From Pseudomonadota bacterium (lineage in GTDB: Bacteria; Pseudomonadota; Gammaproteobacteria; Steroidobacterales; Steroidobacteraceae): 64,000 bases of DNA. Positions 21,472 through 45,207 of this stretch are shown piece by piece. Positions within the stretch are counted from its first letter, which is position 1. The number at the start of each line of letters is the position of its first letter. The notes under the pieces were generated by a model, which saw only the letters and a list, made by a program, of their open reading frames with translations, made no database searches and was not told the DNA's origin. The position numbers were made by a program, and so were the translations under genes. The stretch covers positions 4,989-68,988 of the forward strand of contig JAEZCR010000026.1 of the NCBI GenBank assembly GCA_023433465.1. The letters run 5' to 3'.

Positions 21472-22251
21472 TCATGGAGTGCAAGTCGTGGAAATTTGCG
21501 CTGCGGAGAGACGCGCCTCCGCTTTCTGGACCGTCTCCACCACCTTTTCTTTCTGTTCGGCCTTCGGACCGCTGCCCGCGAAAAGTCCCGTGAACTCCTC
21601 GAGCGTGCAGTATTCCCGATTGAGGTTCGACGCCAGGTATTCGACGAGTGAAGGCGCGACCGACTTGACCGAATGATGTGCGGAAAGGAGCTGATCCAGG
21701 ATTCCGTCCGGTGAACCGCCAATCTCCTCGACGAGCGCCACCGAGCGCTCGTGCTTCTCCGGCGGAATCGTCGCGGCCGCGCCGACGAGTTCCCTGATTT
21801 CCCGCGCCTTGATGTCGAAAAGCGCGAGCTGCGGCACCACCCTGATGAATGCGCAGTCGCGCGGTTGCGATGCGTCCTGGTTCGGCAGGCGCCTGCAGGC
21901 CTTGGCGGCTTTGTCACCGATCGCCAGCACCTGAGTCTCGCGTCCGCGACCGGACTTCCAGGCGGAGGCGGCCGCGATGCGGTAGAAGCCTACCGCCGTC
22001 GCAGGGTCCTTCGCCGCGATCGCGTCACCGGCCTTCTCGGCACGGATGGACAAGTCGACCATCTGCGCTTCGGAGGTCTCATTTGTGGTCATCGCCACCA
22101 GGAACTGGTCGGGAGTCGCCCGCTCCGCTTCGAGCTTGGCCGAATAGGCGCGCGCCCATTCATTGTCCATCTTGATGAGATCGACCGGCGCTACGCAGGC
22201 CGTCAGCAACAAACAGGGAATGATCCACGCAACGAGCCGTTTCGGTTTCAC
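21472..22251 (-). CDS. Lipoprotein, function unknown (last gene of the TIR/YEATS operon)
   Basis: GTG start at 22251 gives VKPKRLVAWIIPCLLLTAC with lipobox LLTAC. The start overlaps the upstream stop as GTGA (22248-22251). Confidence 0.6.
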   Translation of the reverse strand: MKPKRLVAWIIPCLLLTACVAPVDLIKMDNEWARAYSAKLEAERATPDQFLVAMTTNETSEAQMVDLSIRAEKAGDAIAAKDPATAVGFYRIAAASAWKSGRGRETQVLAIGDKAAKACRRLPNQDASQPRDCAFIRVVPQLALFDIKAREIRELVGAAATIPPEKHERSVALVEEIGGSPDGILDQLLSAHHSVKSVAPSLVEYLASNLNREYCTLEEFTGLFAGSGPKAEQKEKVVETVQKAEARLSAAQISTTCTP

Positions 22252-24077
22252 TTCGCCACTCCCGCCGCACCGACTGCGACCCTGATTGTCTGCTCGTCCA
22301 GGATCGGTACCACTCCCGATTCGATGACCTGGTGGATCATCGTGCGATACAGGAACAACCACTCACTACCGCCCATCTTCTCGCGGTTGTCGGTCACCAG
22401 CTTCCCGAGTTGCGCCGCGAGCTCCCCGACTTTCTTCCCATGGAGCGCCGCCGCCGCGGCGTTGCTCGCATGAGCGCGTATGGCGGCGATCATGGCATCG
22501 CGCAGGGTCGCGCCAAACATCACGGCACCACCTGCTCTTCCAGCCTCAGTCCACTGCGCCACCGCAACAGACAGCAAGTCCCCTAACAATGTATCGAGAA
22601 GGCTTCCCCGCTCCGCATTGCGCTCGACGCCGAGCAGACGGCCCGGATTCGCCGCCACCTCCTGTGCCGCGGCTGCAAGGATCGCCATCCAGTCGTCCTG
22701 CGACAGCAACAGGTGCTCGTCACTCGCCATCGCCGTCACGATCGCCGAGATGAGTCGATCGATCTCCGCGTTGCGGGTCGATGGCATCAATCCAGGAGTC
22801 GCCGCCACTCGTGCGACGACCACGCGCAGGATACTCTCGATGTTAGCGCGACTCCCGAGCCGTCGGAGCGCAGCCGAATCATCCTGCTTCAGCGCCTGCG
22901 CGATCGGAGCCAGTACCGGATTCAACAGCTGCGCGACGAGATTGTCCCACGGCTTGCCGGGATCGAGCAGCAAGCCACCTTCGCGCGCGAACGATTCGAC
23001 GACGCTCGTCGCGAGATCCAGGACCAGCGATCGGTCGATCGCGGGAGCGCCGGCGGCCACGCTTGCAAGATCCTTGAAGACGGCCCCAATGAGTTTGTCC
23101 GTCGAGTCCTGCGTCTTTCCAAGGAACAGATCCGGGCGCGCGGCAGCGAGTTGTGCGGTGGCCTTGAACAGTTGAACCGCACCGGCCTTCGAGACGACTT
23201 CGGTCAGCCCCAGGTCCGCGATCTTGAGCACGTAAGTGCGCGTCAGCGTCCCGAGGACATCGTCGTTGCCAAACTGTGCGCCGAAGAATGCCCCCGGATC
23301 TTCCGCCAGCGTGCGCAGCGCTTCGCCTGCCACCGGGCCCAACACGTTTTCGAGAACCCCTCGCCACTTGATCTGTTTGTCGAGCGACTCCGGCAGGCTC
23401 TCGACGATTTTCGGAAGCGTGTTCGTCACCAGCTTTTGCAGGTGTGCATCTTCGACGATGGCTTCCGGATGTTCAGCCAGCGCACCGAGCCCGGCCTTGA
23501 GGAAAATGGCCGCGACCCTTTCTCCGAACAGGTTGCGGGGACCGAGCGCGTCGGCATTGTCAGGGACCAGGTCCGCCACGCGCGATGCGACCGCCTTGAC
23601 CAGCGATTCGGCATTGCCGTCGAGACCGAACAACTTCGGGTCGGTGGCTGCGAACTCCGCCGCGACATCGACGATGACGAGGACCACGCGCGCAAACGGG
23701 CCCAGCGGCTCCTCGCCCCTGGCCCATTGATTGACCATCCAGTATCCCGCGAACTCGTCGGCGCGAGACGCAAGGTTCTTGTCGGCGATGATCTGCTGCC
23801 GCGCGTGCTCCGCCGAAAGCAGGTCGAATGCGTCCGCGAGTCGTTCCGCGCCTGGCTTGCCCGTGAACGAATCCCAGTAGCGGCTCAGATCCGGCGTGAT
23901 CTTTTCGGGATGGACCTCGAAGTATCCTCGGACCTTCGCCCGCTGTGGAAACGAAATCTTCTCGACGAGCGGCAGGAGCACCGTGCGATCGCGCGCGTAC
24001 TGCCCGATCGCCTCACTACCTGCGCGCTGCAGTCGGGCGGCGGCGCGAACCGCCATCATGATGAGGGTTGGATTCAC
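22248..24077 (-). CDS. Large (~609 aa) all-alpha, Ala/Leu-rich repeat-like protein, function unknown
   Basis: GTG start at 24077 (VNPTLIMMAVRAA...) overlaps the upstream stop as GTGA (24074-24077). No catalytic motif is seen. The first 85 codons of the ORF are Arg-rich and overlap the previous gene. Confidence 0.6.
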   Translation of the reverse strand: MNPTLIMMAVRAAARLQRAGSEAIGQYARDRTVLLPLVEKISFPQRAKVRGYFEVHPEKITPDLSRYWDSFTGKPGAERLADAFDLLSAEHARQQIIADKNLASRADEFAGYWMVNQWARGEEPLGPFARVVLVIVDVAAEFAATDPKLFGLDGNAESLVKAVASRVADLVPDNADALGPRNLFGERVAAIFLKAGLGALAEHPEAIVEDAHLQKLVTNTLPKIVESLPESLDKQIKWRGVLENVLGPVAGEALRTLAEDPGAFFGAQFGNDDVLGTLTRTYVLKIADLGLTEVVSKAGAVQLFKATAQLAAARPDLFLGKTQDSTDKLIGAVFKDLASVAAGAPAIDRSLVLDLATSVVESFAREGGLLLDPGKPWDNLVAQLLNPVLAPIAQALKQDDSAALRRLGSRANIESILRVVVARVAATPGLMPSTRNAEIDRLISAIVTAMASDEHLLLSQDDWMAILAAAAQEVAANPGRLLGVERNAERGSLLDTLLGDLLSVAVAQWTEAGRAGGAVMFGATLRDAMIAAIRAHASNAAAAALHGKKVGELAAQLGKLVTDNREKMGGSEWLFLYRTMIHQVIESGVVPILDEQTIRVAVGAAGVAK

Positions 24078-25237
24078 GGGCCGGCTCCACCTGCCGGCTG
24101 GCCGCTGGAAGAAGGGGGATGCGCAGCGGCAAAGGCGACTCGGAACGCGTCGACAGGTGTACTCGGTGGCGAACCCGCCGCGGCTCCTGCTCGCGCAGGC
24201 GTATCCGGAGTTTCCGGTTCGCGGCTGCTGGAGCGCGATTGCGCGCCACGCGTGAGACTGCGCGCGAGATCGAACCAGAACGGCGCCCCGAGACCGATCA
24301 GCAGACCCGCGAGGCCCACCGAGAGGATCCACTGCAGTCCGCGGACCGAAGCGATTCGATCGACTATCGATCCGACGTCCATCGGCAGAGCGCGCTGCTC
24401 GTCATCCACACAACCCGCATCGCGAGACCTCGGCGCCTTTCCATCCGCGGCAGCCGTTCGCGGCCGGCAGAAAGGCCAATACTCCGTGGAAATCGGCAGC
24501 CCGGTGTCGTCGATTCGCGCAAGCTCGGCGCGCACTCGCTCCGCGCCCGCATCGACGATTTCGTTTGGGGTGGAAACTTCCGGTCCCGCAGGCACCGGCG
24601 GAGCGCTCATCACGTCGGCAGCGCTCCTGGGACGAGGTGCATTCTCGGCCACCTGGGATTCGAGCGCCTGGACGACACTCTGTGTGAGCTTGTCGTCGTG
24701 CAGCAGCGACTTGAACACCCGCACCGCGTCCACGTTCACCGCGAATGCGCACACCATCGAAACGAGCAGACACCAGAAATGCGCCTGGCCCTGGAATCGC
24801 TGCGAAGCCCCCTGCCCGAAGCGATCGAACTTCTGCGCGAGGTCATTGATGATGATCTGCGTGCGTTCGGCTCCTGTCCGGGCAATCGCATCGCCGACAT
24901 GGGTATCGGCGAGGCGCTCGGCGAACTGCATCATCGACATCGATTTCAAATCGGCGGATTGAGCAATCGAGCGCAACCAGCTGGTCTTCTTCTCGTACGC
25001 CTGGTTGCGTGTGACCGATGCCAGGAACTGGTCACGGGCGGTTTCCATCGAGATCCCGCTCAGCGTCGCGGCTATCCGCGTGCTCAGCACGTCGTCGAAC
25101 AGCCGCTCCATCATGAGCCGGAACCCACGTTCGCGCGTCGAAAGAAGCTGGTAGCCCGTTTCGAGAACGATGGTCACCACCGTGGCGAGCGCCAGCATGA
25201 TCAGTGAAAACGCCAGCGCGGCTTCGAGCCAGTTCAT
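24074..25237 (-). CDS. Three-TM membrane protein (candidate YEATS-associated 3TM, YLATT-like)
   Basis: TM1 LEAALAFSLIMLALATVVTIVL, TM2 FWCLLVSMVCAFAVNV, TM3 LQWILSVGLAGLLIGLGAPFWF, and a Pro/Ser-rich C-terminal tail. It lies directly downstream of the YEATS-TIR gene. Confidence 0.6.
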   Translation of the reverse strand: MNWLEAALAFSLIMLALATVVTIVLETGYQLLSTRERGFRLMMERLFDDVLSTRIAATLSGISMETARDQFLASVTRNQAYEKKTSWLRSIAQSADLKSMSMMQFAERLADTHVGDAIARTGAERTQIIINDLAQKFDRFGQGASQRFQGQAHFWCLLVSMVCAFAVNVDAVRVFKSLLHDDKLTQSVVQALESQVAENAPRPRSAADVMSAPPVPAGPEVSTPNEIVDAGAERVRAELARIDDTGLPISTEYWPFCRPRTAAADGKAPRSRDAGCVDDEQRALPMDVGSIVDRIASVRGLQWILSVGLAGLLIGLGAPFWFDLARSLTRGAQSRSSSREPETPDTPARAGAAAGSPPSTPVDAFRVAFAAAHPPSSSGQPAGGAGP

Positions 25238-25252: not shown

Positions 25253-26014
25253 CTACGCCTTTGCTTTCGTCGCCTGAAGGATTTGTGCCGTCGCCGCATC
25301 GAGTTCCGCGGAGGAGCCGATATGGAGAGCGCTCCGGTTGGCGAGCGCTTCCGGCACTTCCGCCGCCGTACCGACGAGCAGAGGGATGACATTCTTGTCC
25401 TCGGCATTCATCGCGTAACCCATCTCGAGCTTCGACCACAAGCTGGGTTTTCCGGAGACGATGAAAACAGTCGCATCGGATTTCTTGATGGCCTGCTTCA
25501 CGAAGTGATCCCACTGCTGCCCAGCCTCCAAGTCGTCCGGCGACGCGATGGTGACTCCGTGACTCTTGAGCTTTTCCTTGAGCTGCCTCGCGAGATCGGA
25601 ATCCGCCGCTCCGTTCGAGACGTACACCGTAGGGTGCTGCTCTGGCAGCTCGGCATCCTTCCTGGGTGGCTTGGGTCCGGGCCTGACGACTGCGCGTCCA
25701 CTCGGCTTTTGCGGAACGATTGCGTCGGGCTCCGCCGGGTATTCGAGCTTGAGCTGGTGAACCCGCTTGAGGTTCTTGCCGGTGGCGCGAACGATCTCGA
25801 TATAGATCTTGAATTCGCCCCAACCTGCCGAATCTAGCCGAAAGCCGTTGCTTCGCTTCTTGATGACGCGAACCGGATCGCGAAATGTGGAGTGGAGCGT
25901 GTAGATCACATGTGTGATGACATCGAGCTCCTTCTTCGGCGCTTCGATCCATACGGACCAGTCCCACCAGTCCTTGGCGCTGTAAGTGGACGATTGTTTG
26001 ATCTGGATGGTCAT
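25253..26014 (-). CDS. YEATS-like domain fused to a TIR domain
   Basis: N-terminal DWWDWSVWIE...ITHVIYTLHSTFRDPVRVI...GWGEFKIYIEIV matches the eukaryotic YEATS signature. C-terminal VYVSNGAADSD...ATVFIVSGKPSLWSKLEMGYA is TIR-like. The ATG overlaps the upstream stop as ATGA (26011-26014). Confidence 0.75.
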   Translation of the reverse strand: MTIQIKQSSTYSAKDWWDWSVWIEAPKKELDVITHVIYTLHSTFRDPVRVIKKRSNGFRLDSAGWGEFKIYIEIVRATGKNLKRVHQLKLEYPAEPDAIVPQKPSGRAVVRPGPKPPRKDAELPEQHPTVYVSNGAADSDLARQLKEKLKSHGVTIASPDDLEAGQQWDHFVKQAIKKSDATVFIVSGKPSLWSKLEMGYAMNAEDKNVIPLLVGTAAEVPEALANRSALHIGSSAELDAATAQILQATKAKA

Positions 26015-26706
26015 GACCGGCCTCCATTCTTGAGCGGTATGCCTATCCACTGTGATTCCGCGTTCGACTGCCAGGGTTTCTTGCCGAGGCCTTCGATTTT
26101 CAGCTGGATCTGATCGTCGTCTTTCACGCCCTCGACCCACACGTAGACACCATCGCCTTCGGGCACCGGCGTTACCTCTGTCCAGGCAGTTCGTTCGCCC
26201 TTCGACCAAAGCCGATGCGAACACCGGGCATCGTCCCCGACGGACTTGAGCTTCCGGCCAAGCTCATCGGGGTTGATGCGCACTTTGACCTTGCGGCCCA
26301 TCCTGAGCTTCCATTCGCCAATGGTTTCCGCCAGCCGCAGAAAGGCCTCGAGCGGACTCGCCCGATCGAACGCGATGATCTCGTGGGACTGGTACATGCC
26401 GCCGACGTCCACATCGGTCTCAACCATCGCGATCGCGGGCTTTCCCTTGTTGCGTGCGTAGTTGATCTCGTCTCGCACCCAGTCGTGCGTGGTGTACTTG
26501 CCGTCCGCTTTCGCGTCCCGGCGCGTCAGCAATCCAACCACCGCATCGCACTCATCGATGCGGGCCTGGACGGCGGGAGTCAGCGCTTCGCCGCCGAGGC
26601 GCTCGCCCGTTACCGGATGCGCGAACTGGCTCGCGAACTGTCGCTCGCACCAACGCACGACGTCCCTATCTACATCACGAAACGAGAACCCCAGAAAGAT
26701 CTTCAT
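26011..26706 (-). CDS. TIR-like domain protein with a C-terminal beta-rich domain of unknown function
   Basis: MKIFLGFSFRDVDRD...CDAVVGLLTRRD...THDWVRDEINYA shows a flavodoxin-like TIR/DUF1863 pattern with a W-x-x-x-E motif. The ATG overlaps the upstream stop as ATGA (26703-26706). Confidence 0.6.
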   Translation of the reverse strand: MKIFLGFSFRDVDRDVVRWCERQFASQFAHPVTGERLGGEALTPAVQARIDECDAVVGLLTRRDAKADGKYTTHDWVRDEINYARNKGKPAIAMVETDVDVGGMYQSHEIIAFDRASPLEAFLRLAETIGEWKLRMGRKVKVRINPDELGRKLKSVGDDARCSHRLWSKGERTAWTEVTPVPEGDGVYVWVEGVKDDDQIQLKIEGLGKKPWQSNAESQWIGIPLKNGGRS

Positions 26707-28316
26707 GACTCCTCCCGCATTACGGCGAGATGCGATTTCACCCAGGTGATGATCGATTGGATCCAGATACCCTCGTTGGCGGGATAAGTACCGGGCTTTC
26801 CATTGAGTTTGGTCATGAGCTTGCCGCCCTTGTGATGCAGCGCGACGACTCCCCACATCTTGTTGAACACCGGGCTGCCGGAATTGCCTTCCTCGGTGGT
26901 CGTGCGATAGTGAACTCGACGAATCTCCGGTCGTGGAGGAGTCCCGTTGGGCGCCCCTTCGTGGTCTAGGATTTCGTTGTCCTGGAACGCGTAGGTCTGC
27001 TCCTCTCCCTGCGGGTGCCCGATGACGAAGACCTGAGGCTGAGGGGGATCGGGCTGGATCGTGGGAAGCCCTTTCGCGATGTCCAGCGGCTTCGGATCCT
27101 TCAAATCTCCTTTGAGGCGCATGAGGCAGAAATCGAGATCATCGCGTGGCGACTCACAGATGATCTCGTCGATCTCGTATGACTGATTGGGGTCGATCGC
27201 TTCGAATCTGACTTCCACGACGTCCGGGGTAGCGCCACCTTCGGCGCCCTTGGAATTCAAGACGTGGAAGTTGGTGAGAAGCAGGAATTCACCGGGATCG
27301 TCGTCCACGAAATCTTTCGAGCGCACCAGGAAACCCGTGCCGAATCGCTTTCCGAGCTTTTGCCGGATCGCCGCGACGCCAAGTCCCTGGTCAAGTCCCC
27401 TGATCCACCACTCCCGCGTCTTCGTTCCTTTTTCGATACCGAGTACCGCCTGGAACTGCGATTCGCTTGGAATCTTTTGCAGAGTCGGACCCGGATCCGC
27501 GGGAATCCTGACAGTGGCGTCCGGCAGACTCATCCTCTGGACCTTCAAGACTTCGAGCGCAGCCTGACCGCGATCGTCCTGATCGAGATTCCACACTTCC
27601 TTGAACTGGCGCAGCGTGCTGCTCAAGTGGAACTCTTTGGTCTTCGGCGATGCCGTGTACTCCCGCAGCGCCGATTCGATCGTTTCCCAGTCCTCGGTGC
27701 CGAGACTGGCTTCGGCGAGCGTCGCCAGGTACCAGTCGTCACGCTCGCCTTCCGGAACTGCCTTCAACGCGCTCAACAACTCCTTCGCCAGCTGCTGGCT
27801 ATCTATGTCCGGCGGGTAGTCGATGCCGTTGCGCTGGCAATGCGCGACACAGGCCAGCAGGTTCACGCCATGCCAGGTATTGCGCCTGGTATCCGCCTGA
27901 TATCCCGCACGGTAGGCCTCGATGGCGTTCGCCATCGAGAGCCGCGCCGCTGTCGAAGCGCGAAATCGCGAATCGAAGTACATCTGCTTGTACGACCTGC
28001 CTAACAACCCGGTGACTTCCGCCATTTCCGGGTGATCCGCGGGAATCCGCCGGCGCAGGACTTCGAGCACGTCCTGCGCGGCGGTGATTCGCCCGGTATC
28101 GATGAGCGCCTGGGCATACAGGCGTCGCGGAGTCGGCTCCACGGGCGCCACGCGGCCTATCGCTTCGGCTACGTCGATCAGCAGGCCGAAATCGCGAATG
28201 TTCCGCAGATCCGTCAGAAGCACGTTCGCCGCAGGCGGATCTTTCAGCGCTCCCGTCTTCCTGAGCTCGGCGATGAGCGCCTTTGCGTTGGCGCGGATTT
28301 CGTCGGCGCTCGCCAC
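26703..28316 (-). CDS. TPR-like (ASK1/DUF4071-like) N-terminal domain fused to a trypsin-like serine protease
   Basis: Catalytic triad candidates are H in LLTNFHVL, D in DDLDFCLMRL and S in GNSGSPVF. The N-terminal ~280 aa is a helical repeat with GLLGRSYKQMY and TWHGVNLLAC motifs. Confidence 0.75.
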   Translation of the reverse strand: MASADEIRANAKALIAELRKTGALKDPPAANVLLTDLRNIRDFGLLIDVAEAIGRVAPVEPTPRRLYAQALIDTGRITAAQDVLEVLRRRIPADHPEMAEVTGLLGRSYKQMYFDSRFRASTAARLSMANAIEAYRAGYQADTRRNTWHGVNLLACVAHCQRNGIDYPPDIDSQQLAKELLSALKAVPEGERDDWYLATLAEASLGTEDWETIESALREYTASPKTKEFHLSSTLRQFKEVWNLDQDDRGQAALEVLKVQRMSLPDATVRIPADPGPTLQKIPSESQFQAVLGIEKGTKTREWWIRGLDQGLGVAAIRQKLGKRFGTGFLVRSKDFVDDDPGEFLLLTNFHVLNSKGAEGGATPDVVEVRFEAIDPNQSYEIDEIICESPRDDLDFCLMRLKGDLKDPKPLDIAKGLPTIQPDPPQPQVFVIGHPQGEEQTYAFQDNEILDHEGAPNGTPPRPEIRRVHYRTTTEEGNSGSPVFNKMWGVVALHHKGGKLMTKLNGKPGTYPANEGIWIQSIITWVKSHLAVMREES

Positions 28317-28319
28317 GTG

Positions 28320-29255
28320 TCAGAGCTCGAGCATGGACCGCAACGCCTGGCGGAATTTCGGCTGCTTGAGATACTTCGTGGCGGAATGACGCCACGCGCC
28401 GTCGTTCTCTATCTGGATGTCCTCGATGCGCTTGACGCTCGAGAAGCGATAGTCGTTGGCGAGTTGGGGATCGAGACCGCAGACCGGATCGAGCCGGTCG
28501 AATAGATTGACCCATCGCTTTGCGACCCGTTCGTTCGGAAAGCCTTCGAGCCGCGACCATCCCGGCTGAAGCTTGTCCTGCACTTCGTCGAGCCCCAATG
28601 GACTGCCGATCGTGATGAGACCATCGACCTTGTTGCAGTCGCCGACTCTCTTGAGGCAGTCGTAGGCGATCACCGTTCCCATGCTGTGCGAAACCACGAT
28701 ATGAGGACCGTTCGACGCAGGCTTGTTCACCTTTTCGACGAAACGTTTGCGAATGGTTTGCTGGATGCGCACGGGCTGGCGACCCGGCGGCGCGAAGCTC
28801 ACGTCGAACAGGTAGTGGTGAACATCACGCAGAAACGCGTTCATGATCGGCTTCTTGATGAACCAGGGCAGCGGGATTCGTTCGAAAGAGCCTCCCGCCG
28901 CGGTCGGTGCCGCCGGCGGAGCCGAAGCGATCTCGTCGTCGTCGCGCGAGGTGAGTTTTTCGCGCAGCCCTTCGATGAACGCGGCTTCTTCCTTGTTGGC
29001 CGGCGTGGGGATGTCCTTGGCTCCGGCCGAGTCGGCGGCGGCATCCCTGTTGGCGTCCGTGCTCTCGAAATTGCTGACGTCGGTGATGGGCTCGCCGTAC
29101 AGGAGATCCGCCCAGTACACCATCGACGTGGTTACACCGTCGGTCTCGAGCGAGAGCGGCTCAGCCGCCGCCTCGAGCGCCTCGCACCAGATTCGGAGCA
29201 ATGTCTTCTCTTCGGGCTTGTTGGCGATGCCGTGTATGAAAGTGACGTGTGCCAT
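28320..29255 (-). CDS. Alpha/beta-hydrolase (lipase/esterase-like)
   Basis: Oxyanion-hole VTFIHGI and nucleophile elbow VVSHSMGTV. No signal peptide. It ends 3 nt before the next start. Confidence 0.7.
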   Translation of the reverse strand: MAHVTFIHGIANKPEEKTLLRIWCEALEAAAEPLSLETDGVTTSMVYWADLLYGEPITDVSNFESTDANRDAAADSAGAKDIPTPANKEEAAFIEGLREKLTSRDDDEIASAPPAAPTAAGGSFERIPLPWFIKKPIMNAFLRDVHHYLFDVSFAPPGRQPVRIQQTIRKRFVEKVNKPASNGPHIVVSHSMGTVIAYDCLKRVGDCNKVDGLITIGSPLGLDEVQDKLQPGWSRLEGFPNERVAKRWVNLFDRLDPVCGLDPQLANDYRFSSVKRIEDIQIENDGAWRHSATKYLKQPKFRQALRSMLEL

Positions 29256-29289: not shown

Positions 29290-29904
29290 TCAAAGGTCGA
29301 AGGCAGGATCTTCGCCGATGTCCGGGATCTTCATGGTCGGTTCCTTCGCCGAAGGCTCGAGACCCCGCATCGATTCGAAGCCCGGTAGCCCCGCTTCCTT
29401 GCGAAGGGCATTGAGGCGATTGAGCCACCCCTTCCTGAACACGGCGAGCTTGGGATTCTTCTCTATGAGCCGCCCATAGAAGGCTTCACGCGCATCGCAA
29501 TATCGAATGACCACTTCGCCGTGATCGCACTCGGCGACTGCCTTTGCCGTGCCGGACCCGAAATCACCATCGACCGCGCAGTTCGCGGCGCCCTGCAGGA
29601 AACGCACGGCTCGGCCCACACCCATGTTCACCGCGGTATCGAACTGAACGAGGTCCAGCGGGTCGTTGAGCAGCTCACAACGGGCCGCGAGCCAGTAGCC
29701 GGACTCGTAGATCGATTGAACTTCATCCTCGGAGATGAGCTTGACGTCCTGCGGCCCGGCACCCTGCCGTGCCCGCCACTGGTCGTAGACTTTCTGGGTG
29801 ACTCCCCTGTTGGTGCGGCCGCCGGGGTCGTCGGGGTGATCGACGAACCCGCCCTCCCAACGCAATACGAATTTGAGCGCAGAAGTCAGCTGGGTGGATG
29901 GCAT
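29290..29904 (-). CDS. GH108-family N-acetylmuramidase with a PG_binding_3-type peptidoglycan-binding domain
   Basis: LRWEGGFVDHPDDPGGRTNRGVTQ is the GH108 catalytic motif. It is followed by DGDFGSGTAKAV (PG-binding). No signal peptide or holin is nearby. It is the first gene of the operon. Confidence 0.8.
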   Translation of the reverse strand: MPSTQLTSALKFVLRWEGGFVDHPDDPGGRTNRGVTQKVYDQWRARQGAGPQDVKLISEDEVQSIYESGYWLAARCELLNDPLDLVQFDTAVNMGVGRAVRFLQGAANCAVDGDFGSGTAKAVAECDHGEVVIRYCDAREAFYGRLIEKNPKLAVFRKGWLNRLNALRKEAGLPGFESMRGLEPSAKEPTMKIPDIGEDPAFDL

Positions 29905-30297: not shown

Positions 30298-33117
30298 ATG
30301 ACGAATCCGCGGAAACGCAGCTTCAAGGCATTCATCTCCTATAGCCACGCCGCGGATGGCAAGCTCGCCCCCGCGGTGCAACGTGCGCTGCATCGCATCG
30401 CCAAGCCGTGGTACCGCATCCGTACCATGCGTGTGTTTCGCGACCAGACGAATCTGGCCGCCAGCCCCGGGCTGTGGTCGTCGATCGAATCGGCGCTGGA
30501 ACAAGCCGAGTACTTCCTCTACATGGCCTCGCCGCAGGCCGCGCAATCTCCATGGGTGCAGAAGGAAATCGAATGGTGGTTGAGCAACCGCTCGCCGCAG
30601 ACCTTCCTCATCCTGCTCACGGACGGCCAGATGGCGTGGAACAGCGAAGCGGCGGATTGGGACTGGAGCAACACGACGGCATGGCCTTCCCAGGCGGCCC
30701 GCGCATTCCGCGAAGAGCCGTTGTACACGGATCTTCGCTGGGCTCGAAAGGAGGAGCAGCTCTCGGCACGGCACTCGCAGTTTCGAGCGGCGATGCTCGA
30801 TCTCGCTGCCACGCTGCTGGGCCGTCCGAAGGATGAGCTCGACGGCGAGGATGTGCGTCAGTACCGTCGGACCCGACGCATCGCCGGGCTCGCGATCGTG
30901 ACACTCGCCGCGTTGTTCATTGCCGCCGCGGTCGCGGCCTACCAGGCTACCCAGCAGAGCAGATTGGCGACCTCGCGTGCGCTGGGCGCGCGATCCGAAG
31001 CTCTGTTGCCGACGAATCCGGAACTCGCCCTGCTGCTGGCGCGCGAGGCCGTCAGCGTACGAGCGGATGAGCAAGCCGTGTTCGCATTGCGCCAGGCGTT
31101 CGTGCGCAATCCCCTGCGCGTGTTTCACCAGGCCCCGTCCGGCACGAACCTCGCCGCGGCCTTTGCCAGTGCCGATGCGGTCGTGGTTGCGGATCCCGAC
31201 GGGGGCGCGAGCATCTGGAGTGTCGCCTCGGGAACCCGCATCGCGGGTGTGGCGGCCGAGCCCGGCGACCGGGCCAGGGTGAGTCATTCGAACGACGGCA
31301 CGATGGTCGTCATCGGCACCGAGGAACCGGAATTCGCCGTCCATGACGCGAAGTCTTGGCAGGTCATCCGGCAGCTTCCCGGAAGCCGCGCGCGATTCAC
31401 TCGCGATGGCAAGACTCTCGTCGCCGAAGACAATGGGGCAATCAGGCAGTGGGACGTGCCATCGCTGAGCGAGCGCGTCTCCCCGATCAAACTACCGAGC
31501 GGGCATTCCTTGTCGGCACCCGCTCCGGATGGTCGCGTGTTCGTGCTGGCGAGTGACGGCGACCCGCTCGAGTTCGTGGTTGTCGATGCGCGCAGCGCGC
31601 GGACCGTCGCGCGGATTCCCGCGATACCGATGGTGGAAGGAGATCCATTGAGCCCCGACGGTACGCTGCTGCTCGTCCAGGATGAGGACCTCGAGCTTTG
31701 GGATACGCGGACCGGCAAGCGGGTGCGGTCGCTGCAACAGCCGGAGTTCGGCGGCATTGGCTGGACGACGTTCGCCGCCTTCACACCCGATGGCGCGAAG
31801 GTCTTCACCGGCAATCGCAACGGCGAGATCCACGCCTGGAAGGTGGCGACGGGTGAATACCTGAGGAATTGGACTCTGCATCGCAACGATATCCGCGCGA
31901 TCGAATTCAGTCGTGACGGGCAGACCATGCTCACCGGCGGAGCGGACGGAACGGTGTGCCTCTGGGAGGTGCCGGGCGACGTCCTGGCGGTTTCGAGCGA
32001 CCGCTGTCTCGTGACCTTGGGAGGCAGAGGCGACGACGCCTGGGACTTCTCCTTTGCCCCGGACGGTCGCCACTTTCTGACGACTCATATGGATGGCACG
32101 GTTCGCGTGTGGGATCGAGAGACCTGGCACCCCAGCGTGACCGTTCCCGGCACGACCATGGCCGCCAGTGAGGACGGCCGGTTCGTCTTGAGTTCCGCGG
32201 ACGATCAACCGCTGCGACTCTGGGATGGAGAGTCCGGCGCGCTGCAAGCAACCCTCGAAATGACGGGAGAGTCCATCGAAGCAATGGCGGTGAGTGGCGC
32301 TGCATCGCTGTTTGCCGTCGCGCGGAAGGAAGGAACCGTTGGGCTTTGGCGCATGCCGTCCGGCGAGCTCGCACTGCAACTGCCCGCAAGCTCCGGCAGC
32401 ACCCAGGCGCTGGCGTTCAATCGCGCCGGAACTGAACTGGTCACCGCGGGAGCGGATGGAAAGATCCGCTTCTGGAGCACGGGTGCGCCGCAGTTATTGC
32501 GCGAGTGGGCCGCGTCTGGTGGAAGTATCGCGAAGCTTCTCGTCGAGAATGATGACAGGCATATCGTTCTGACCTTCGACCCCGGAACGGTGCAAGTGCG
32601 CGACATCGAGAACGGCGCGGTGATCTCGGAGACGAAAGTCGTGGCCGAGGGACGTACCGCGGGAGTCTTGACGCCCGGTGCGAATCGGATGTTGCTGGCC
32701 GTGGTCGACGATCGGTTTCCTGAATTGTGGAATCTCGGGACCGGCAAGAGAGTGTTGACCCTTCCCGGCCACACTGACGAGGTGTGGTCGACGGCGCTGA
32801 GCTCCGATGGCCGGTTCTTGCTGACCGGCAGTGGTTTCTTCATGTCCCGAGGTGAAGCACCCGAAGATGGCAACGCGATACGAATCTGGGACGCACAGAG
32901 CGGCCGCGAAATTCTCAGTTACCGGGCGCCCGGATGGGTGGTGAACCAGGTGGCCTTTGCCGGCGACGACACGACTATCTTCTCGGCCAGCCGGGACGGG
33001 ATGGTGCGACGCTTCCGCTGCGAAGTCTGCCTTCCTCTGGAAGAGCTGCAGTCGCTCATATCCTCGCGCGTGACGCGCGAGCTGACGGCGGGCGAGCGCG
33101 CTCAATATGTTCCGTGA
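30298..33117 (+). CDS. TIR - single TM - WD40 (double beta-propeller) protein
   Basis: AAGGAG RBS. TIR motifs FKAFISYSHAADG and SPWVQKEIEWW. The positive patch RQYRRTRR is followed by TM IAGLAIVTLAALFIAAAVAAY. There are then ~700 aa of WD repeats (GADGTVCLWEV, MDGTVRVWD, GADGKIRFWS, HTDEVWSTALSSDGRFLLTGS). Confidence 0.85.
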   Translation: MTNPRKRSFKAFISYSHAADGKLAPAVQRALHRIAKPWYRIRTMRVFRDQTNLAASPGLWSSIESALEQAEYFLYMASPQAAQSPWVQKEIEWWLSNRSPQTFLILLTDGQMAWNSEAADWDWSNTTAWPSQAARAFREEPLYTDLRWARKEEQLSARHSQFRAAMLDLAATLLGRPKDELDGEDVRQYRRTRRIAGLAIVTLAALFIAAAVAAYQATQQSRLATSRALGARSEALLPTNPELALLLAREAVSVRADEQAVFALRQAFVRNPLRVFHQAPSGTNLAAAFASADAVVVADPDGGASIWSVASGTRIAGVAAEPGDRARVSHSNDGTMVVIGTEEPEFAVHDAKSWQVIRQLPGSRARFTRDGKTLVAEDNGAIRQWDVPSLSERVSPIKLPSGHSLSAPAPDGRVFVLASDGDPLEFVVVDARSARTVARIPAIPMVEGDPLSPDGTLLLVQDEDLELWDTRTGKRVRSLQQPEFGGIGWTTFAAFTPDGAKVFTGNRNGEIHAWKVATGEYLRNWTLHRNDIRAIEFSRDGQTMLTGGADGTVCLWEVPGDVLAVSSDRCLVTLGGRGDDAWDFSFAPDGRHFLTTHMDGTVRVWDRETWHPSVTVPGTTMAASEDGRFVLSSADDQPLRLWDGESGALQATLEMTGESIEAMAVSGAASLFAVARKEGTVGLWRMPSGELALQLPASSGSTQALAFNRAGTELVTAGADGKIRFWSTGAPQLLREWAASGGSIAKLLVENDDRHIVLTFDPGTVQVRDIENGAVISETKVVAEGRTAGVLTPGANRMLLAVVDDRFPELWNLGTGKRVLTLPGHTDEVWSTALSSDGRFLLTGSGFFMSRGEAPEDGNAIRIWDAQSGREILSYRAPGWVVNQVAFAGDDTTIFSASRDGMVRRFRCEVCLPLEELQSLISSRVTRELTAGERAQYVP

Positions 33118-35021: not shown

Positions 35022-35066
35022 TGGCGCGCCCGGAGAGATTCGAACTCCCGACCACCTGGTTCGTAG
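35022..35066. repeat. attR: 45-bp direct repeat identical to the 3' end of tRNA-Arg
   Basis: TGGCGCGCCCGGAGAGATTCGAACTCCCGACCACCTGGTTCGTAG is identical to 49179-49223. Confidence 0.9.
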
Positions 35067-35300
35067 TTGGAAGGGGTGGAAATCTCGAGCGGGACGGGAA
35101 ACGTAGATAGTTGATTTTGTTGAGTCAAAAATCGCGAAGTCGCATGGCATCCGTTGCAATTGTCACGACTGAGCACGACGAAGCAGGACCAAGTCCCGCA
35201 AAACTCCCGCAAGTACCTGGTTACTTTTCGTACGTAACCACCTGGCCATTAACCAGGTCGTCGGGACCGGCGGGGGTAGGAGCGTGTGTGCCGATGCACG

Positions 35301-36161
35301 CTACGGCTTCCGCACGCCGAAGAGGTGCGGCCATAGTTTCTGGCACTCAGCCGCAGTCGGGTAACGGCCGTATCTCTGGTTGAATTCCTCCCCTACGCGG
35401 TTGCATTCGCGCCAATCAGCTTGGGGAATAGCACGGACCTCCGGCAAAGGACGCATCACGGGAGTGCTTGGTCGATCTGAGACGGGAAGCACTGGCGACC
35501 TGATGCGACTACGTGCGAGCGCGGAACGGAACATAGATGCGAACAGCCGCTCCGGCTCGCGCTGCTCGGGATGGAATAACCAAACCTTGGAAGCCAGGTC
35601 CTTCTGCAACTTCATTTGCAACGCTTCTCGCGGAAGCATGGAGTCGCCGGCATCAAGTCGAATCTCGATAGCGGGAACGTTCCGGCGTCGGATCTTGCGC
35701 AGCTTTGCACGCGTCACTTTGTGCGTAACTGCAACTTCAAGTATCAACGCTTTTGCATCGGACTCGATGATGATGTCGGGAACGAAGTCGCCCTCATTTT
35801 TCTCGACCCTGACTCTGCGGATCGGAAACTGTTCGCCATCGGCCACCAGGGCCTGGTGCCGAACGGACACACCGAGCTTTGTCTTGCGTTGTCTGACGAA
35901 GTCATAGGGTGGGACCGTGAAGGAGTCCAACTCCGCTAGCAGTTCCTTAGCAAGCATGTGCAGAGCTGATTCGGCAGCGCCTTGGCAACTGGTGACCTCG
36001 AAGTGAGCGAAATGGTGTCGGCGAATTGATCCCTTCTTTGCAACCAGTGGCTTGCCGCAGCGGGCGCACATACATCCGCAAGCTAAGCCACTCGGTACAT
36101 TCCCAATGAACTGCAAATTGCCGTCGCGCAGCCCATAACCACTGCAATCACCGGCGATCAC
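35301..36161 (-). CDS. CoiA-like nuclease family protein
   Basis: An N-terminal Cys cluster CGCMCARCGKPL...RRHHFAH, then a PD-(D/E)xK-like FVPDIII...LILEVAVTHK. It lies 47 nt downstream of the E2 gene on the same strand. Confidence 0.6.
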   Translation of the reverse strand: MIAGDCSGYGLRDGNLQFIGNVPSGLACGCMCARCGKPLVAKKGSIRRHHFAHFEVTSCQGAAESALHMLAKELLAELDSFTVPPYDFVRQRKTKLGVSVRHQALVADGEQFPIRRVRVEKNEGDFVPDIIIESDAKALILEVAVTHKVTRAKLRKIRRRNVPAIEIRLDAGDSMLPREALQMKLQKDLASKVWLFHPEQREPERLFASMFRSALARSRIRSPVLPVSDRPSTPVMRPLPEVRAIPQADWRECNRVGEEFNQRYGRYPTAAECQKLWPHLFGVRKP

Positions 36162-36208
36162 GACTTGAGAATTCCGTCATGCCAAGATTCTTAGCGACGC
36201 CAATGCAT

Positions 36209-36883
36209 TTATGCCTTGCTCATGCGCTTTAGCGCTTCATCTACGGGCCTGATCGCCTTCGATGCATCACTGCGAGGGATCTTGTCCCGCAAGTTGCGCA
36301 CCATCTCGAAGTGGCAGTCCCGAATTCTTTTTCCGCTACCACACGGGCAGTCCCAGTGGCCTTTGACTCTCTTCGCGGCAAGGAGCTCGAAGTACTTCTT
36401 CACCTTCACCAAGTCGTCGGTGTCGAAAATCTCCTGATAGAACTGCTTGCGGCCATATAGACCGTGATCCCACTGACCGAAAGGCCACACTCCATCGCGT
36501 TCAAATACAGCTTGGCCAATGAAATAGTTCCGGACAGGACCGTCGATGAAATCCAGCAGGGATTTTCCTTTGGGCCAAACCCGCCAGCGTTCCTCAGGAA
36601 GAAAGAGGCACGATGCGCCGGTTTCATAGCAGTGCCGATCCAGGGTGCGTGGAATCCGCCCGGCGGTTTCGAATACCACCGGCACGCCCTCTGGATAATC
36701 TTGCGGGAGCTGAATTTCAATCGAAAAGCGGTCGAGGATCTTGCTGCCTTCCTTGATCTCTAGGCTGCCTGAAATCCTGACCTGGCCTTCGAGCACCGAG
36801 AAGTGCAGATGCGGGTACACCTGCGCGACTTCTGCCTTCTCTCGATCGAAGGCGACGAGATCACGTTCGTGCCATGCCTTCAT
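36209..36883 (-). CDS. CBASS E2-only (Cap2-like, ubiquitin-conjugating-fold) protein with a C-terminal SEC-C motif
   Basis: UBC-like core with PQDYPEGVPVVFE and a candidate catalytic Cys in HCYETGASCLFLP. C-terminal CPCGSGKRIRDCH. The start overlaps the CD-NTase stop (ATGA). Confidence 0.7.
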   Translation of the reverse strand: MKAWHERDLVAFDREKAEVAQVYPHLHFSVLEGQVRISGSLEIKEGSKILDRFSIEIQLPQDYPEGVPVVFETAGRIPRTLDRHCYETGASCLFLPEERWRVWPKGKSLLDFIDGPVRNYFIGQAVFERDGVWPFGQWDHGLYGRKQFYQEIFDTDDLVKVKKYFELLAAKRVKGHWDCPCGSGKRIRDCHFEMVRNLRDKIPRSDASKAIRPVDEALKRMSKA

Positions 36884-37785: not shown

Positions 37786-37787
37786 AG

Positions 37788-38987: not shown

Positions 38988-39027
38988 CAGTGTAAGCTTC
39001 CGCTGTACAGTGTCAAGGACGCCGCAG

Positions 39028-45182: not shown

Positions 45183-45207
45183 TCAATCTCTCCCTCAAGT
45201 GCTGCCG

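What the first reader, a model, noticed from the sequence alone, without database searches (positions are those of the whole stretch)
25253..26014. Bacterial YEATS-like reader domain fused to a TIR domain
Residues 1-85 read DWWDWSVWIE ... ITHVIYTLHSTFRDPVRVI ... GWGEFKIYIEIV.

This lines up motif for motif with the eukaryotic YEATS signature as I remember it from Yaf9/AF9: W-x-V-[FY]-V, V-x-F-x-L-H-x-[ST]-[FY]-x-x-P-x-R, GWGEF-x-I-x-I. In eukaryotes that fold reads acyl-lysine.

Here it is joined through a Pro/Lys-rich linker to a TIR domain (VYVSNGAADSD ... SLWSKLEMGYA). The ligand of a prokaryotic YEATS domain is unknown. It could be the sensor that gates the TIR.

I recall prokaryotic YEATS (pYEATS) being noted only in comparative-genomic surveys of conflict systems. 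I know of no experimental work.
Basis: partly seen in the sequence, partly recalled or inferred. Interest (0 to 1): 0.8.

Follow-up and report, generated by a model that had tools for sequence, protein, structure and literature searches.

The report
Bacterial YEATS–TIR immune gene pair
The gene really does encode a bacterial copy of the eukaryotic histone-mark reader (YEATS) fused to a TIR domain. It belongs to a catalogued but untested family and always sits next to a second TIR gene in what looks like an anti-virus suicide operon.

Summary
The minus-strand ORF 25253..26014 (253 aa) has three parts. First comes an N-terminal prokaryotic YEATS domain (Pfam PF20305, E 2e-18; direct phmmer hit to Yaf9/TAF14b, about 1e-7; AF2 model pLDDT 89, best PDB folds Yaf9/GAS41/Taf14/AF9). 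Then comes a disordered Pro/Lys linker. Last is a TIR_2 domain (E 1e-14) with the W-x3-E catalytic motif.

The acyl-lysine pocket residues of AF9 (H56/S58/F59/Y78/F81) map to H41/T43/F44/W65/F68. These are conserved in 86–88 of 88 pYEATS–TIR proteins.

The family is not new. Pfam models it, NCBI and JGI name homologues "pYEATS domain-containing protein", and at least 87 clusters at 50% identity share the fusion.

The new information is context. The gene is translationally coupled (ATGA overlap) to a 231-aa TIR-plus-β-sandwich partner that has no Pfam model. That partner precedes every pYEATS–TIR gene and many stand-alone pYEATS genes. A TPR-S protein lies within about 7 kb in 20 of 30 such loci, and lipases, proteases and cell-wall hydrolases are common nearby.

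My best reading is a TIR/NAD+-based abortive-infection module in which pYEATS binds the ligand. The function is experimentally untested. It is a new member of a known kind, of moderate interest.

The parts
25253..26014 (-). pYEATS-linker-TIR protein, 253 aa (the finding).
   Evidence: ORF and translation. Pfam pYEATS, YEATS and TIR_2 hits. AF2 model pLDDT 89.4. Foldseek to YEATS and SARM1 TIR structures.
25730..26014 (-). pYEATS domain, residues 1-95. The Pfam match covers residues 17-88. Pocket residues are H41, T43, F44, W65 and F68, plus the invariant W17 and W19.
   Evidence: Conservation in 88 pYEATS-TIR proteins: W17 87, W19 88, H41 87, T/S43 86, F44 88, W65 87, F68 88.
25634..25729 (-). 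Pro/Lys-rich linker, residues ~96-127, predicted disordered and variable in length among homologues.
   Evidence: pLDDT is 50-74 in this stretch. This region is full of gaps and insertions in alignment A1.
25265..25633 (-). TIR domain, residues ~128-250. The W193-x3-E197 motif carries the putative catalytic Glu.
   Evidence: TIR_2 E 1.2e-14. E197 aligns with SARM1 E642 (hhalign). E197 is E in 76 and D in 5 of 88 family members. Foldseek matches SARM1 and TIR-1.
26011..26706 (-). Invariant partner gene, 231 aa: an N-terminal divergent TIR-like domain (motif H-x-W75-V-x-x-E79) plus a C-terminal small beta-sandwich. ATGA start/stop overlaps on both sides.
   Evidence: Weak TIR_2 hit (E 8e-4). AF2 pLDDT 92.1. 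Foldseek to SARM1 TIR and nucleoside deoxyribosyltransferase. hhalign to the fused TIR: prob 96.8%, E 2e-10. HxWVxxE in 31 of 31 distinct partner ORFs. Lies immediately upstream of pYEATS in 29 loci. Overlaps shown.
26703..28316 (-). TPR-S (sensor-type TPR) fused to a trypsin-like serine protease, 537 aa.
   Evidence: Pfam TPR-S 2.6e-15, MAP3K_TRAF_bd 1.3e-9, Trypsin_2 1.4e-19. TPR-S homologues lie within about 7 kb of the cassette in 20 of 30 loci.
28320..29255 (-). Alpha/beta-hydrolase (LCAT/PGAP1-like lipase, SHSMG nucleophile elbow), 311 aa. A likely membrane-lipid effector, standing where patatin stands in other loci.
   Evidence: Weak Pfam hits to Hydrolase_4, LCAT and Abhydrolase_6. Patatin or LCAT-type lipases occur in L004, L018, L019, L024, L025, L027, L035, L016, L010 and L067.
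29290..29904 (-). GH108 muramidase plus PG_binding_3, 204 aa. It is the first gene I assign to the minus-strand gene string, and its link to the system is tentative.
   Evidence: Pfam E 1.9e-28 and 4.3e-11. The same gene heads the cassette in the Steroidobacteraceae MAG. An Amidase_2 peptidoglycan hydrolase takes that position in Thioalkalivibrio.
24074..25237 (-). Unknown 387-aa protein starting 15 nt after the pYEATS-TIR stop. Both ends are hydrophobic and look like TM segments (my reading, no prediction tool run). Possibly an optional membrane effector.
   Evidence: No Pfam, NCBIfam or PADLOC hit. A homologue sits directly after pYEATS-TIR in a Nitrospira MAG (L025 8035-9084, E 2e-33). Spacing shown.
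30298..33117 (+). TIR_2-TM-WD40 protein, 939 aa, transcribed divergently from the operon. A recurrent neighbour of the cassette.
   Evidence: N-terminal TIR_2 3.5e-9. WD40 repeats. The TM segment is my reading of the sequence. Homologous ~730-1050-aa WD40 proteins occur beside the cassette in 7 loci. N-termini were checked in three: TIR_2 in the window, TIR-like by eye in L018, nSTAND1 in L014.

Best explanation
The ORF encodes a cytoplasmic pYEATS-TIR protein. It is one half of a conserved two-gene TIR module, and the other half is the upstream, translationally coupled 231-aa TIR-plus-beta-sandwich protein.

In this window the pair is the tail end of an operon: GH108 muramidase, lipase-like alpha/beta-hydrolase, TPR-S-trypsin protease, partner TIR, pYEATS-TIR, and possibly a membrane protein. 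The operon lies in a variable immunity region next to a tRNA-Arg integration hotspot.

Proposed mechanism:
1. The pYEATS domain uses the same aromatic pocket that eukaryotic YEATS domains use for acyl-lysine. With it, it binds a trigger that carries a planar amide. This could be an acylated lysine on an invader or host protein, or a small molecule.
2. Binding changes how the fused TIR and the partner TIR assemble. TIR active sites form only in oligomers.
3. The assembled TIRs cleave NAD+. This depletes it, or makes an NAD+-derived signal, or both.
4. Where a TPR-S protein is present, it reads that signal and releases the fused or neighbouring effectors (trypsin-like protease, lipase or patatin, cell-wall hydrolase). 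These kill the infected cell.

What is shown: domain identities, the predicted fold, conservation of pocket and catalytic residues, the gene pairing, and the recurrent neighbours.

What is inferred: NADase activity, the direction of information flow, the nature of the ligand, and the defence phenotype.
For: Identity:
- Pfam pYEATS, YEATS and TIR_2, phmmer to Yaf9/TAF14b, AF2 pLDDT 89, Foldseek to YEATS and SARM1 TIR.

Pocket retained:
- H41/T43/F44/W65/F68 align to AF9 H56/S58/F59/Y78/F81. Those residues are the acetyl-lysine pocket (PMC12362337).
- They are conserved in 86-88 of 88 pYEATS-TIR proteins, more strictly than the fused TIR's Glu (76 E plus 5 D of 88).

TIR competence:
- W193-x3-E197 aligns with SARM1 W638-E642.
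- The partner has H-x-W-V-x-x-E in 31 of 31 distinct ORFs and aligns to the fused TIR at prob 96.8%.

Cassette:
- The partner lies directly upstream, often with a 4-nt overlap, in all pYEATS-TIR loci and about 15 stand-alone pYEATS loci, across Nitrospira, Nitrosomonas, Gallionella, Burkholderiales, Steroidobacteraceae, Polyangiaceae, Chitinophagaceae, Acidobacteriota and Desulfobacteraceae.
- Some loci hold only the pair among metabolic genes (L006/L012). In these the TIR is the only enzyme, so it is most likely the effector.

Immune context:
- TPR-S is present in 12 of 15 fusion loci and 8 of 15 stand-alone loci.
- Neighbours include patatin, LCAT-CHAT, caspase, nSTAND1/NACHT, ThsB_TIR, CAP12-TIR and HET.
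- The window region abuts an integrase island carrying CBASS and a Type ISP restriction enzyme.
- JGI names a homologue 'pYEATS domain-containing protein involved in immunity'.

Operon: ATGA overlaps and Shine-Dalgarno sites. No terminator-like site between 21.5 and 30.4 kb.
Against: - There is no experimental datum for any member.
- PADLOC has no model that matches the cassette. The only hits are weak TIR similarities at E about 1e-3. NCBIfam has none.
- The sixth AF9 pocket residue (F28, loop 1) has no aligned aromatic counterpart. By extension of the alignment it falls on D15, next to W16/W17. The pocket geometry could not be inspected because model coordinates are not exposed.
- The E197 to SARM1 E642 alignment has only 61% hhalign probability.
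- About 8% of fusions lack Glu or Asp at position 197, so the fused TIR may be a scaffold in some members.
- Other pYEATS classes carry signal peptides, either as tandem copies or fused to caspase-PEGA. The family ligand is therefore not necessarily a cytoplasmic invader protein.
- GH108 is linked to the cassette only in this window and one related MAG. That could be shared ancestry rather than function.
Confidence: 0.55

Rival explanations
1. Second-messenger receptor model (Thoeris-like). The partner TIR is the signal producer, like ThsB. pYEATS is the receptor pocket for the NAD+-derived product, for example through its nicotinamide- or adenine-like planar ring. The fused TIR is the NADase effector that it switches on, like ThsA.
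For: - Several TIR genes cluster at these loci, including ThsB_TIR-type ones.
- The YEATS pocket stacks planar amide or aromatic groups and accepts non-peptide heteroaromatic ligands (PMC12362337).
- The fused TIR is the less conserved of the two TIRs, and the partner's Glu is invariant.
Against: - About half of the partner-linked pYEATS proteins are 100-aa stand-alone domains with no effector attached. A pure receptor would have nothing to switch on in these.
- TPR-S is the component annotated as the sensor in these systems (Pfam name). My recollection of Burroughs and Aravind 2020 is that they predicted it to recognise NAD+-derived signals.
- No invader sensor would then be identified in the minimal two-gene loci.
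Confidence: 0.2
2. Adaptor or regulator model. pYEATS is a protein-protein module that docks on the partner, on its beta-sandwich or on an acylated lysine. It holds the partner TIR inactive (antitoxin-like) or recruits it to other components, and it does not sense an invader itself. Sensing is done by the TPR-S, WD40 or STAND proteins.
For: - Strict 1:1 adjacency and translational coupling with the partner.
- The partner's C-terminal beta-sandwich has no other obvious role.
- Large repeat-containing proteins that are typical sensors recur next to the pair: TIR-TM-WD40, nSTAND1-WD40 and TPR-S.
Against: - Near-absolute conservation of the ligand pocket across fused, stand-alone, tandem and exported classes that have no partner at all. 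This argues for a ligand common to the family rather than one specific to the partner.
- Minimal loci lack any other candidate sensor.
Confidence: 0.17
3. Non-immune role. The pocket reads N-acetyl or acyl groups of cell-envelope or metabolic molecules. The operon would then serve cell-wall remodelling or developmental lysis rather than defence against phage.
For: - Peptidoglycan hydrolases head the operon in three genomes: GH108 in the window and L001, and Amidase_2 in Thioalkalivibrio.
- Other pYEATS classes are exported and fused to the surface-associated PEGA domain.
Against: - The fusion and its partner lack signal peptides.
- The neighbours are overwhelmingly conflict-system domains: TIR, caspase/CHAT, patatin, STAND NTPases and HET.
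- The locus sits in a variable region beside mobile defence genes.
- Occurrence is patchy across phyla.
Confidence: 0.06

Closest known systems
Prokaryotic YEATS family (Pfam PF20305, pYEATS). As I recall, it was introduced in Burroughs and Aravind 2020, J Bacteriol 202:e00365-20. That paper is cited but is not held in the library.
   Same: - The score is well above the family cut-off (66.7 bits against 26.9).
- The same pYEATS+TIR_2 architecture is already recorded for database homologues, which NCBI and JGI name 'pYEATS domain-containing protein'.
- It has the same TPR-S and TIR neighbourhood.
   Different: Nothing essential differs: this is another member. What I could not confirm as published is the obligatory 231-aa TIR-plus-beta-sandwich partner. 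It has no Pfam or NCBIfam model.
Eukaryotic YEATS acyl-lysine readers (AF9/ENL, Yaf9, Taf14, GAS41, YEATS2).
   Same: - The same Ig-like fold (Foldseek prob 1.00).
- Direct sequence similarity, 24-31% identity.
- The same L4 'LHxS/TF' and L6 'GWGxF' pocket motifs.
   Different: - The N-terminal strand region is shorter.
- The loop-1 aromatic residue (AF9 F28) is not aligned.
- There is no chromatin context.
- It is fused to a TIR enzyme and encoded in a conflict operon.
- The ligand is unknown.
Sensor-fused bacterial and animal TIR NADases (SARM1, TIR-STING, TIR-SAVED, SPARTA TIR-APAZ).
   Same: - A ligand-binding domain is joined to a TIR with the W-x3-E catalytic motif.
- The expected logic is the same: ligand-driven oligomerisation followed by NAD+ cleavage.
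   Different: - The sensor is a YEATS fold, not ARM, STING, SAVED or APAZ.
- A second, separately encoded TIR is always present.
- PADLOC gives only marginal similarity to SAVED_TIR models (E 1.5e-3).
Thoeris (ThsB TIR plus ThsA effector).
   Same: - It is a multi-TIR locus.
- ThsB_TIR-type domains occur in neighbours.
- NAD+-derived signalling is plausible.
   Different: - No ThsA (SIR2, Macro or TM domain with SLOG) was found at the locus.
- No PADLOC Thoeris hit.
- The candidate signal reader here is TPR-S.
TPR-S / MAP3K_TRAF_bd proteins (PF20308, PF13281; related to the central regulatory region of the eukaryotic ASK1 kinase).
   Same: The neighbouring gene carries TPR-S (57.3 bits against 27.6) and MAP3K_TRAF_bd. 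The same holds for 20 of 30 cassette loci.
   Different: Here TPR-S is fused to a trypsin-like protease. Elsewhere it is fused to patatin, CHAT or TIR, or stands alone.

Membership tests
pYEATS (Pfam PF20305) / YEATS superfamily | Profile match above the curated gathering score. | tested here: met
   PF20305 scores 66.7 bits against 26.9. PF03366 scores 55.2 bits against 22.
pYEATS (Pfam PF20305) / YEATS superfamily | Ig-like YEATS fold. | tested here: met
   AF2 pLDDT is 93-98 over residues 1-90. Foldseek top hits are Yaf9, GAS41, Taf14 and AF9, with E about 1e-6, prob 1.00 and TM (target-normalised) 0.5-0.64. This is a prediction, not a solved structure.
pYEATS (Pfam PF20305) / YEATS superfamily | Acyl-lysine pocket residues (AF9 F28, H56, S58, F59, Y78, F81). 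| tested here: inconclusive
   Five of the six align to H41, T43, F44, W65 and F68, which are near-invariant. F28 has no aligned aromatic residue. The 3-D geometry could not be inspected.
pYEATS (Pfam PF20305) / YEATS superfamily | Binding of acylated lysine. | not testable with these tools
   This needs peptide-array, ITC or NMR experiments.
TIR domain NADases (Pfam PF13676 TIR_2) | Profile match above the gathering score, and TIR fold. | tested here: met
   TIR_2 scores 55.3 bits against 28. Foldseek matches SARM1 TIR with TM 0.70.
TIR domain NADases (Pfam PF13676 TIR_2) | Catalytic glutamate (SARM1 E642 equivalent). | tested here: met
   E197 aligns with E642 and W193 with W638 (hhalign prob 61%). 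E197 is conserved as E or D in 81 of 88 members. The partner's E79 is present in 31 of 31 ORFs.
TIR domain NADases (Pfam PF13676 TIR_2) | NAD+ cleavage or cyclase activity. | not testable with these tools
   This needs an enzyme assay.
TPR-S-centred NAD+-signalling conflict systems (as I recall them from Burroughs and Aravind 2020) | A TPR-S protein encoded beside TIR enzyme(s) and linked to an effector domain. | tested here: met
   The TPR-S-Trypsin_2 gene lies directly upstream of the two TIR genes. The same association holds in 20 of 30 loci. The definition of the system rests on my memory, because the paper could not be read.
Thoeris | A ThsA effector (SIR2, Macro or TM domain with a SLOG sensor) paired with a ThsB TIR. 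| tested here: not met
   No such domain appears in the window genes that were scanned. There is no PADLOC Thoeris hit.
CBASS/Pycsar TIR effectors | A SAVED or cNMP-binding sensor fused to the TIR, and a cyclase in the same operon. | tested here: not met
   There is only a marginal TIR-region hit to the SAVED_TIR model (E 1.5e-3). The CBASS genes of the window (36880..38987) lie in a separate integrative island bounded by 45-nt repeats.

The most novel reading that the evidence does not exclude
The conserved YEATS pocket is a genuine immune sensor in bacteria. It reads a specific acyl-amide mark or planar metabolite that appears on infection, and it thereby licenses a hetero-oligomeric TIR NADase formed with the invariant partner. 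The mark could be an acylated lysine on a phage or host protein, or an NAD+- or peptidoglycan-derived amide. If so, the eukaryotic histone acyl-lysine reader would descend from an immune ligand sensor, and the pair would define a new minimal two-gene TIR defence system that current defence-finder models do not cover.
Probability: 0.3. Interest if true: 0.8.

Novelty: new member of a known kind. Interest (0 to 1): 0.5.

Why it matters
YEATS domains are known experimentally only as eukaryotic chromatin readers of lysine acylation. A bacterial version wired to TIR enzymes would show what the fold did before chromatin existed. It would also add a new type of sensor domain to TIR-based immunity, the branch of immunity shared by bacteria, plants and animals.

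This locus offers three practical things:
- A compact, testable unit: two overlapping genes, with or without three to four effector genes.
- Clear mutational targets: H41, F44, W65, F68, E197 and the partner's E79.
- Cultured carriers of the same cassette: Nitrosomonas communis Nm44 and Thioalkalivibrio nitratireducens DSM 14787.

The family itself is already catalogued, so the value lies in enabling experiments rather than in discovery.

Tried and rejected
- **Literature.** Eight full-text searches (pYEATS; YEATS+TIR+prokaryotic; YEATS+TRADD-N; TPR-S; YEATS+anti-phage; 'prokaryotic YEATS'; YEATS+Thoeris; AF9 pocket residues) found no paper that discusses bacterial YEATS. The hits were author names or eukaryotic work. 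The likely primary source is J Bacteriol 2020, PMC7685563. It is cited but is not held, so what I say about it is from memory.
- **Defence and annotation libraries.** PADLOC and NCBIfam have no model for the pYEATS-TIR protein, the partner, the lipase or the two downstream unknowns.
- **Mobile carriers.** There are no relatives in the viral contig collection or in plasmids. BFVD structural hits match only the TIR/deoxyribosyltransferase half, with no viral YEATS.
- **Part of the integrase island? Rejected.** The perfect 45-nt att repeats at 35022-35066 and 49179-49223 bound a separate 14.2-kb element. The cassette lies outside it.
- **Longer ORF starting at the GTG at 26224 (323 aa). Rejected.** Homologue N-termini, the Shine-Dalgarno site and the ATGA overlap all favour the ATG at 26014.
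- **Is the partner's C-terminal domain a second YEATS? Rejected.** Foldseek gives only generic Ig-like or carbohydrate-enzyme beta-sandwich hits. The partner profile has no sequence hit in PDB.
- **Pocket geometry.** I could not inspect it in the model because coordinates are not exposed.
Full report
**1. What is there**

The finding's coordinates delimit a minus-strand ORF, 25253..26014, of 253 aa.

The start is the ATG at 26014. A GGAGG site lies 9 nt upstream, and the ATG overlaps the stop of the upstream gene as ATGA. Homologues begin at the same position.

Pfam gives three hits above threshold:
- pYEATS PF20305: E 1.8e-18, 66.7 bits against a cut-off of 26.9, residues 17-88.
- YEATS PF03366: E 7.1e-15.
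- TIR_2 PF13676: E 1.2e-14, residues 130-234.

A plain phmmer search of PDB sequences finds plant YAF9A/TAF14b (2.6e-7) and yeast Yaf9 (5e-7), then GAS41, YEATS2, Taf14, Sas5, AF9 and ENL. The family profile reaches 1.7e-11 and also picks up TIR structures such as TLR, RPS4, RUN1 and SARM1.

An AlphaFold2 model built on 54 sequences has mean pLDDT 89.4. It shows a beta-sandwich at residues 4-87, a low-confidence linker at about 100-125, and an alpha/beta TIR at residues 129-249. Foldseek against PDB puts Yaf9, GAS41, Taf14 and AF9 YEATS structures on top (E about 4e-7 to 1e-5, prob 1.00). SARM1/TIR-1 TIR domains match the C-terminal half.

**2. Functional residues**

I verified my recalled AF9 sequence against PDB and it is identical. 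I then aligned it to the family profile (hhalign prob 95%, E 5e-8). The alignment gives these pairs:

| This protein | AF9 |
|---|---|
| H41 | H56 |
| T43 | S58 |
| F44 | F59 |
| W65 | Y78 |
| F68 | F81 |

These AF9 residues, together with F28, form the acetyl-lysine pocket. The acyl group is sandwiched between F59 and Y78 and hydrogen-bonded to S58 (PMC12362337).

F28 lies outside the aligned block. By extension of the alignment it would fall on D15, beside W16 and the invariant W17. I could not examine the model coordinates, so this stays unresolved.

In 88 pYEATS-TIR proteins (representatives of 50%-identity clusters plus the window) conservation is as follows:
- W17 87, W19 88, H41 87, T/S43 86, F44 88, W65 87, F68 88.
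- TIR Glu E197: E in 76 and D in 5.

E197 and W193 align with SARM1 E642 and W638. The hhalign probability is 61%.

**3. How common it is**

An exhaustive phmmer search with residues 1-95 against 1.84 billion cluster representatives finds 1240 proteins at E up to 1e-3 and 521 at E up to 1e-10. Of the best 150, 87 have the pYEATS+TIR architecture. The rest are roughly 100-aa stand-alone domains, tandem copies or longer fusions.

Database homologues already carry the Pfam annotation. They are named 'pYEATS domain-containing protein' (NCBI, Steroidobacteraceae MAG) or 'pYEATS domain-containing protein involved in immunity/TIR domain-containing protein' (JGI).

No experimental or descriptive paper on bacterial YEATS is in the searchable library. 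The probable source, Burroughs and Aravind 2020, is cited but could not be opened.

**4. The partner gene, the main addition**

The gene directly upstream (26011..26706, 231 aa) overlaps its neighbours by ATGA on both sides. Its properties:
- Pfam gives only a sub-threshold TIR_2 hit (E 8e-4).
- Most of its 77 homologues have no precomputed Pfam domain.
- The AF2 model (pLDDT 92.1) shows an N-terminal TIR/nucleoside-deoxyribosyltransferase-like domain followed by a small beta-sandwich.
- Profile-profile comparison aligns its N-terminal domain with the fused TIR (prob 96.8%, E 2e-10). This pairs E79 with E197 and W75 with W193.
- The motif H-x-W-V-x-x-E is present in 31 of 31 distinct partner ORFs.

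A scan of one genome per species returned 58 pYEATS loci. Together with the contigs fetched by exact protein look-up, they fall into these classes:
- **Partner plus pYEATS-TIR (15 loci).** Steroidobacteraceae, five Nitrospira, three Nitrosomonas including the cultured N. communis Nm44, Gallionella, Burkholderiales, Polyangiaceae, Thioalkalivibrio nitratireducens DSM 14787, and others.
- **Partner plus a 100-aa stand-alone pYEATS (about 15 loci).** Alphaproteobacteria, Chitinophagaceae, Acidobacteriota, Desulfobacteraceae, Dormibacteraceae and others.
- **No partner, tandem pYEATS.** The three I read (L053, L056 and L057) begin with what I judge to be a signal peptide.
- **No partner, C-terminal pYEATS.** The domain sits on exported caspase-PEGA proteins or on TM-coiled-coil proteins.
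- **A few with neither a partner nor another domain.**

The fusion was never found without the partner. Some loci consist of the two genes alone among metabolic genes (L006/L012).

**5. Wider neighbourhood**

The window genes on the minus strand are tightly packed:
- GH108 muramidase plus PG_binding_3 (29290..29904).
- LCAT/PGAP1-like alpha/beta-hydrolase (28320..29255).
- TPR-S plus Trypsin_2 (26703..28316).
- Partner.
- pYEATS-TIR.
- An unknown 387-aa protein whose two ends look like TM segments (24074..25237).
- An unknown protein of about 600 aa (22248..24026).

No terminator-like site lies between 21.5 and 30.4 kb.

Across the 30 partner-linked loci, three kinds of neighbour recur:
- A TPR-S protein in 20 loci: 12 of 15 fusion loci and 8 of 15 stand-alone loci (jackhmmer; Pfam confirmation).
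- Patatin in six loci, or other lipases.
- A large WD40 protein (about 730-1050 aa) in seven loci. The window's copy has TIR_2 at the N-terminus and the L014 copy has nSTAND1.

Other neighbours are TIR-TPR, CHAT-TPR-S, caspase, LCAT-CHAT, NACHT, HET, ThsB_TIR and CAP12-type TIR proteins.

In T. nitratireducens the order is Amidase_2, TPR-S, TPR-S-patatin, partner, pYEATS-TIR. The layout is the same as here, with different effectors.

The first downstream unknown has a homologue in the same position in a Nitrospira MAG (L025, E 2e-33). The second has one beside the cassette in a Desulfobacteraceae MAG (L019, E 2e-86).

**6. Genomic setting**

GC content falls from about 66% to 52-60% between roughly 25 and 47 kb.

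A perfect 45-nt direct repeat (35022-35066 and 49179-49223) is the 3' part of tRNA-Arg(acg). It bounds a 14.2-kb integrase element carrying a CoiA-like gene, a SMODS-like gene with an HNH-SAVED CBASS effector, a Type ISP restriction enzyme, Fic and MobC/NikA.

The pYEATS operon lies just outside this element. The related Steroidobacteraceae MAG has GH108, TPR-S, partner and pYEATS-TIR about 6 kb from the same tRNA-Arg and RsbR/STAS gene. The cassette is therefore an older resident of the same hotspot.

No relatives were found in viral contigs or plasmids.

**7. Mechanism**

The best-supported reading is a TIR-based abortive-infection module:
- pYEATS is the ligand-binding element. Its pocket is the most conserved feature of the protein.
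- The two TIRs form the enzymatic core. The partner's Glu is invariant, while the fused TIR's Glu is more variable, so that TIR may partly act as a scaffold.
- TPR-S-linked proteases and lipases, and cell-wall hydrolases, are the executioners.

In loci with only the pair, the TIR must itself be the effector, presumably by NAD+ depletion.

Several things are inferred rather than shown: NADase activity, the ligand, the order of events, and the phenotype.

The main rivals are:
- pYEATS as the receptor of a TIR-made messenger.
- pYEATS as an adaptor or inhibitor of the partner.
- A non-immune, envelope-related role.

The exported pYEATS classes and the peptidoglycan hydrolases keep an N-acetyl or acyl small-molecule ligand on the table.

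**8. Verdict**

The feature is real and biologically attractive, but it belongs to an already modelled and fairly large family, and it has no experimental characterisation. It is a new member of a known kind.

This analysis adds:
- the obligatory TIR-plus-beta-sandwich partner,
- the residue-level conservation,
- the recurrent operon design,
- cultured organisms in which to test it.

Interest is 0.5.

Noticed in passing
window 35022-49223: A 14.2-kb integrative element bounded by a perfect 45-nt direct repeat (35022-35066 and 49179-49223), which is the 3' part of tRNA-Arg(acg) at 49179-49255. It carries an integrase (47936..49171), MobC/NikA (46953..47504), Fic (45208..46776), a 1636-aa Type ISP restriction-modification enzyme (40272..45182), an HNH-SAVED gene (37788..38987) with a SMODS-like gene (36880..37785), and a CoiA_N-like gene (35301..36161).
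   Followed up: partly
window 30298-33117 (+) and 33315-34682 (+): Two further TIR proteins are transcribed divergently from the operon: a 939-aa TIR_2-TM-WD40 protein and a 455-aa protein with an N-terminal TIR_2. Homologues of the first lie beside the partner/pYEATS pair in 7 loci. At least one of them (L014) has an nSTAND1 NTPase in place of the TIR.
   Followed up: partly
window 24074-25237 (-) and 22248-24026 (-): Two proteins lie downstream of pYEATS-TIR with no hit in Pfam, NCBIfam or (for the first) PADLOC. The first has hydrophobic N- and C-terminal segments and the shared motif LGAPFWFDL, and a homologue directly after pYEATS-TIR in a Nitrospira MAG (L025 8035-9084). The second has a homologue (E 2e-86) near the cassette in a Desulfobacteraceae MAG (L019 3-1730).
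   Followed up: partly
L039-L062 (e.g. L043 5570-7249, L053 6320-7630, L056 6146-7279, L057 6056-7234): A separate pYEATS class occurs without the partner gene. It appears as tandem copies, or at the C-terminus of exported caspase-PEGA proteins or TM-coiled-coil proteins. The members I read begin with what look like signal peptides. The motif CVEYTLHPTFP.PVR..C has two conserved Cys, which may form a disulfide. These domains are probably extracytoplasmic.
   Followed up: partly
L015 3561-5552, L025 2950-4965, L035 8552-10630: These TPR-S proteins carry an extra C-terminal domain of about 200 aa. L015 was scanned and has no Pfam hit there. L015 and L025 share the motifs GACGGDLLF and GPGGTAHM, with variants in L035. 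By eye it resembles a SLOG/LOG-type nucleotide-binding domain. I did not test this.
   Followed up: no
L067 (Thioalkalivibrio nitratireducens DSM 14787, CP003989.2, 1742175-1758870): A cultured strain with a complete genome has the operon Amidase_2, TPR-S, TPR-S-patatin, partner (TVNIR_1742), pYEATS-TIR, next to an IS66 transposase. Nitrosomonas communis Nm44 (L020) also carries the pair. Both are handy sources for experiments.
   Followed up: partly
L033 6344-7718: In this Gammaproteobacteria MAG the pYEATS-TIR reading frame is split into two overlapping ORFs. This is either a frameshift or pseudogene, or an assembly error.
   Followed up: no
window 46791-46877: Three tandem copies of a 24-nt unit (TCTAGGTTTTGGCGT...) lie between the Fic and MobC/NikA genes. 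They may be iterons or an oriT-related repeat of the integrative element.
   Followed up: no
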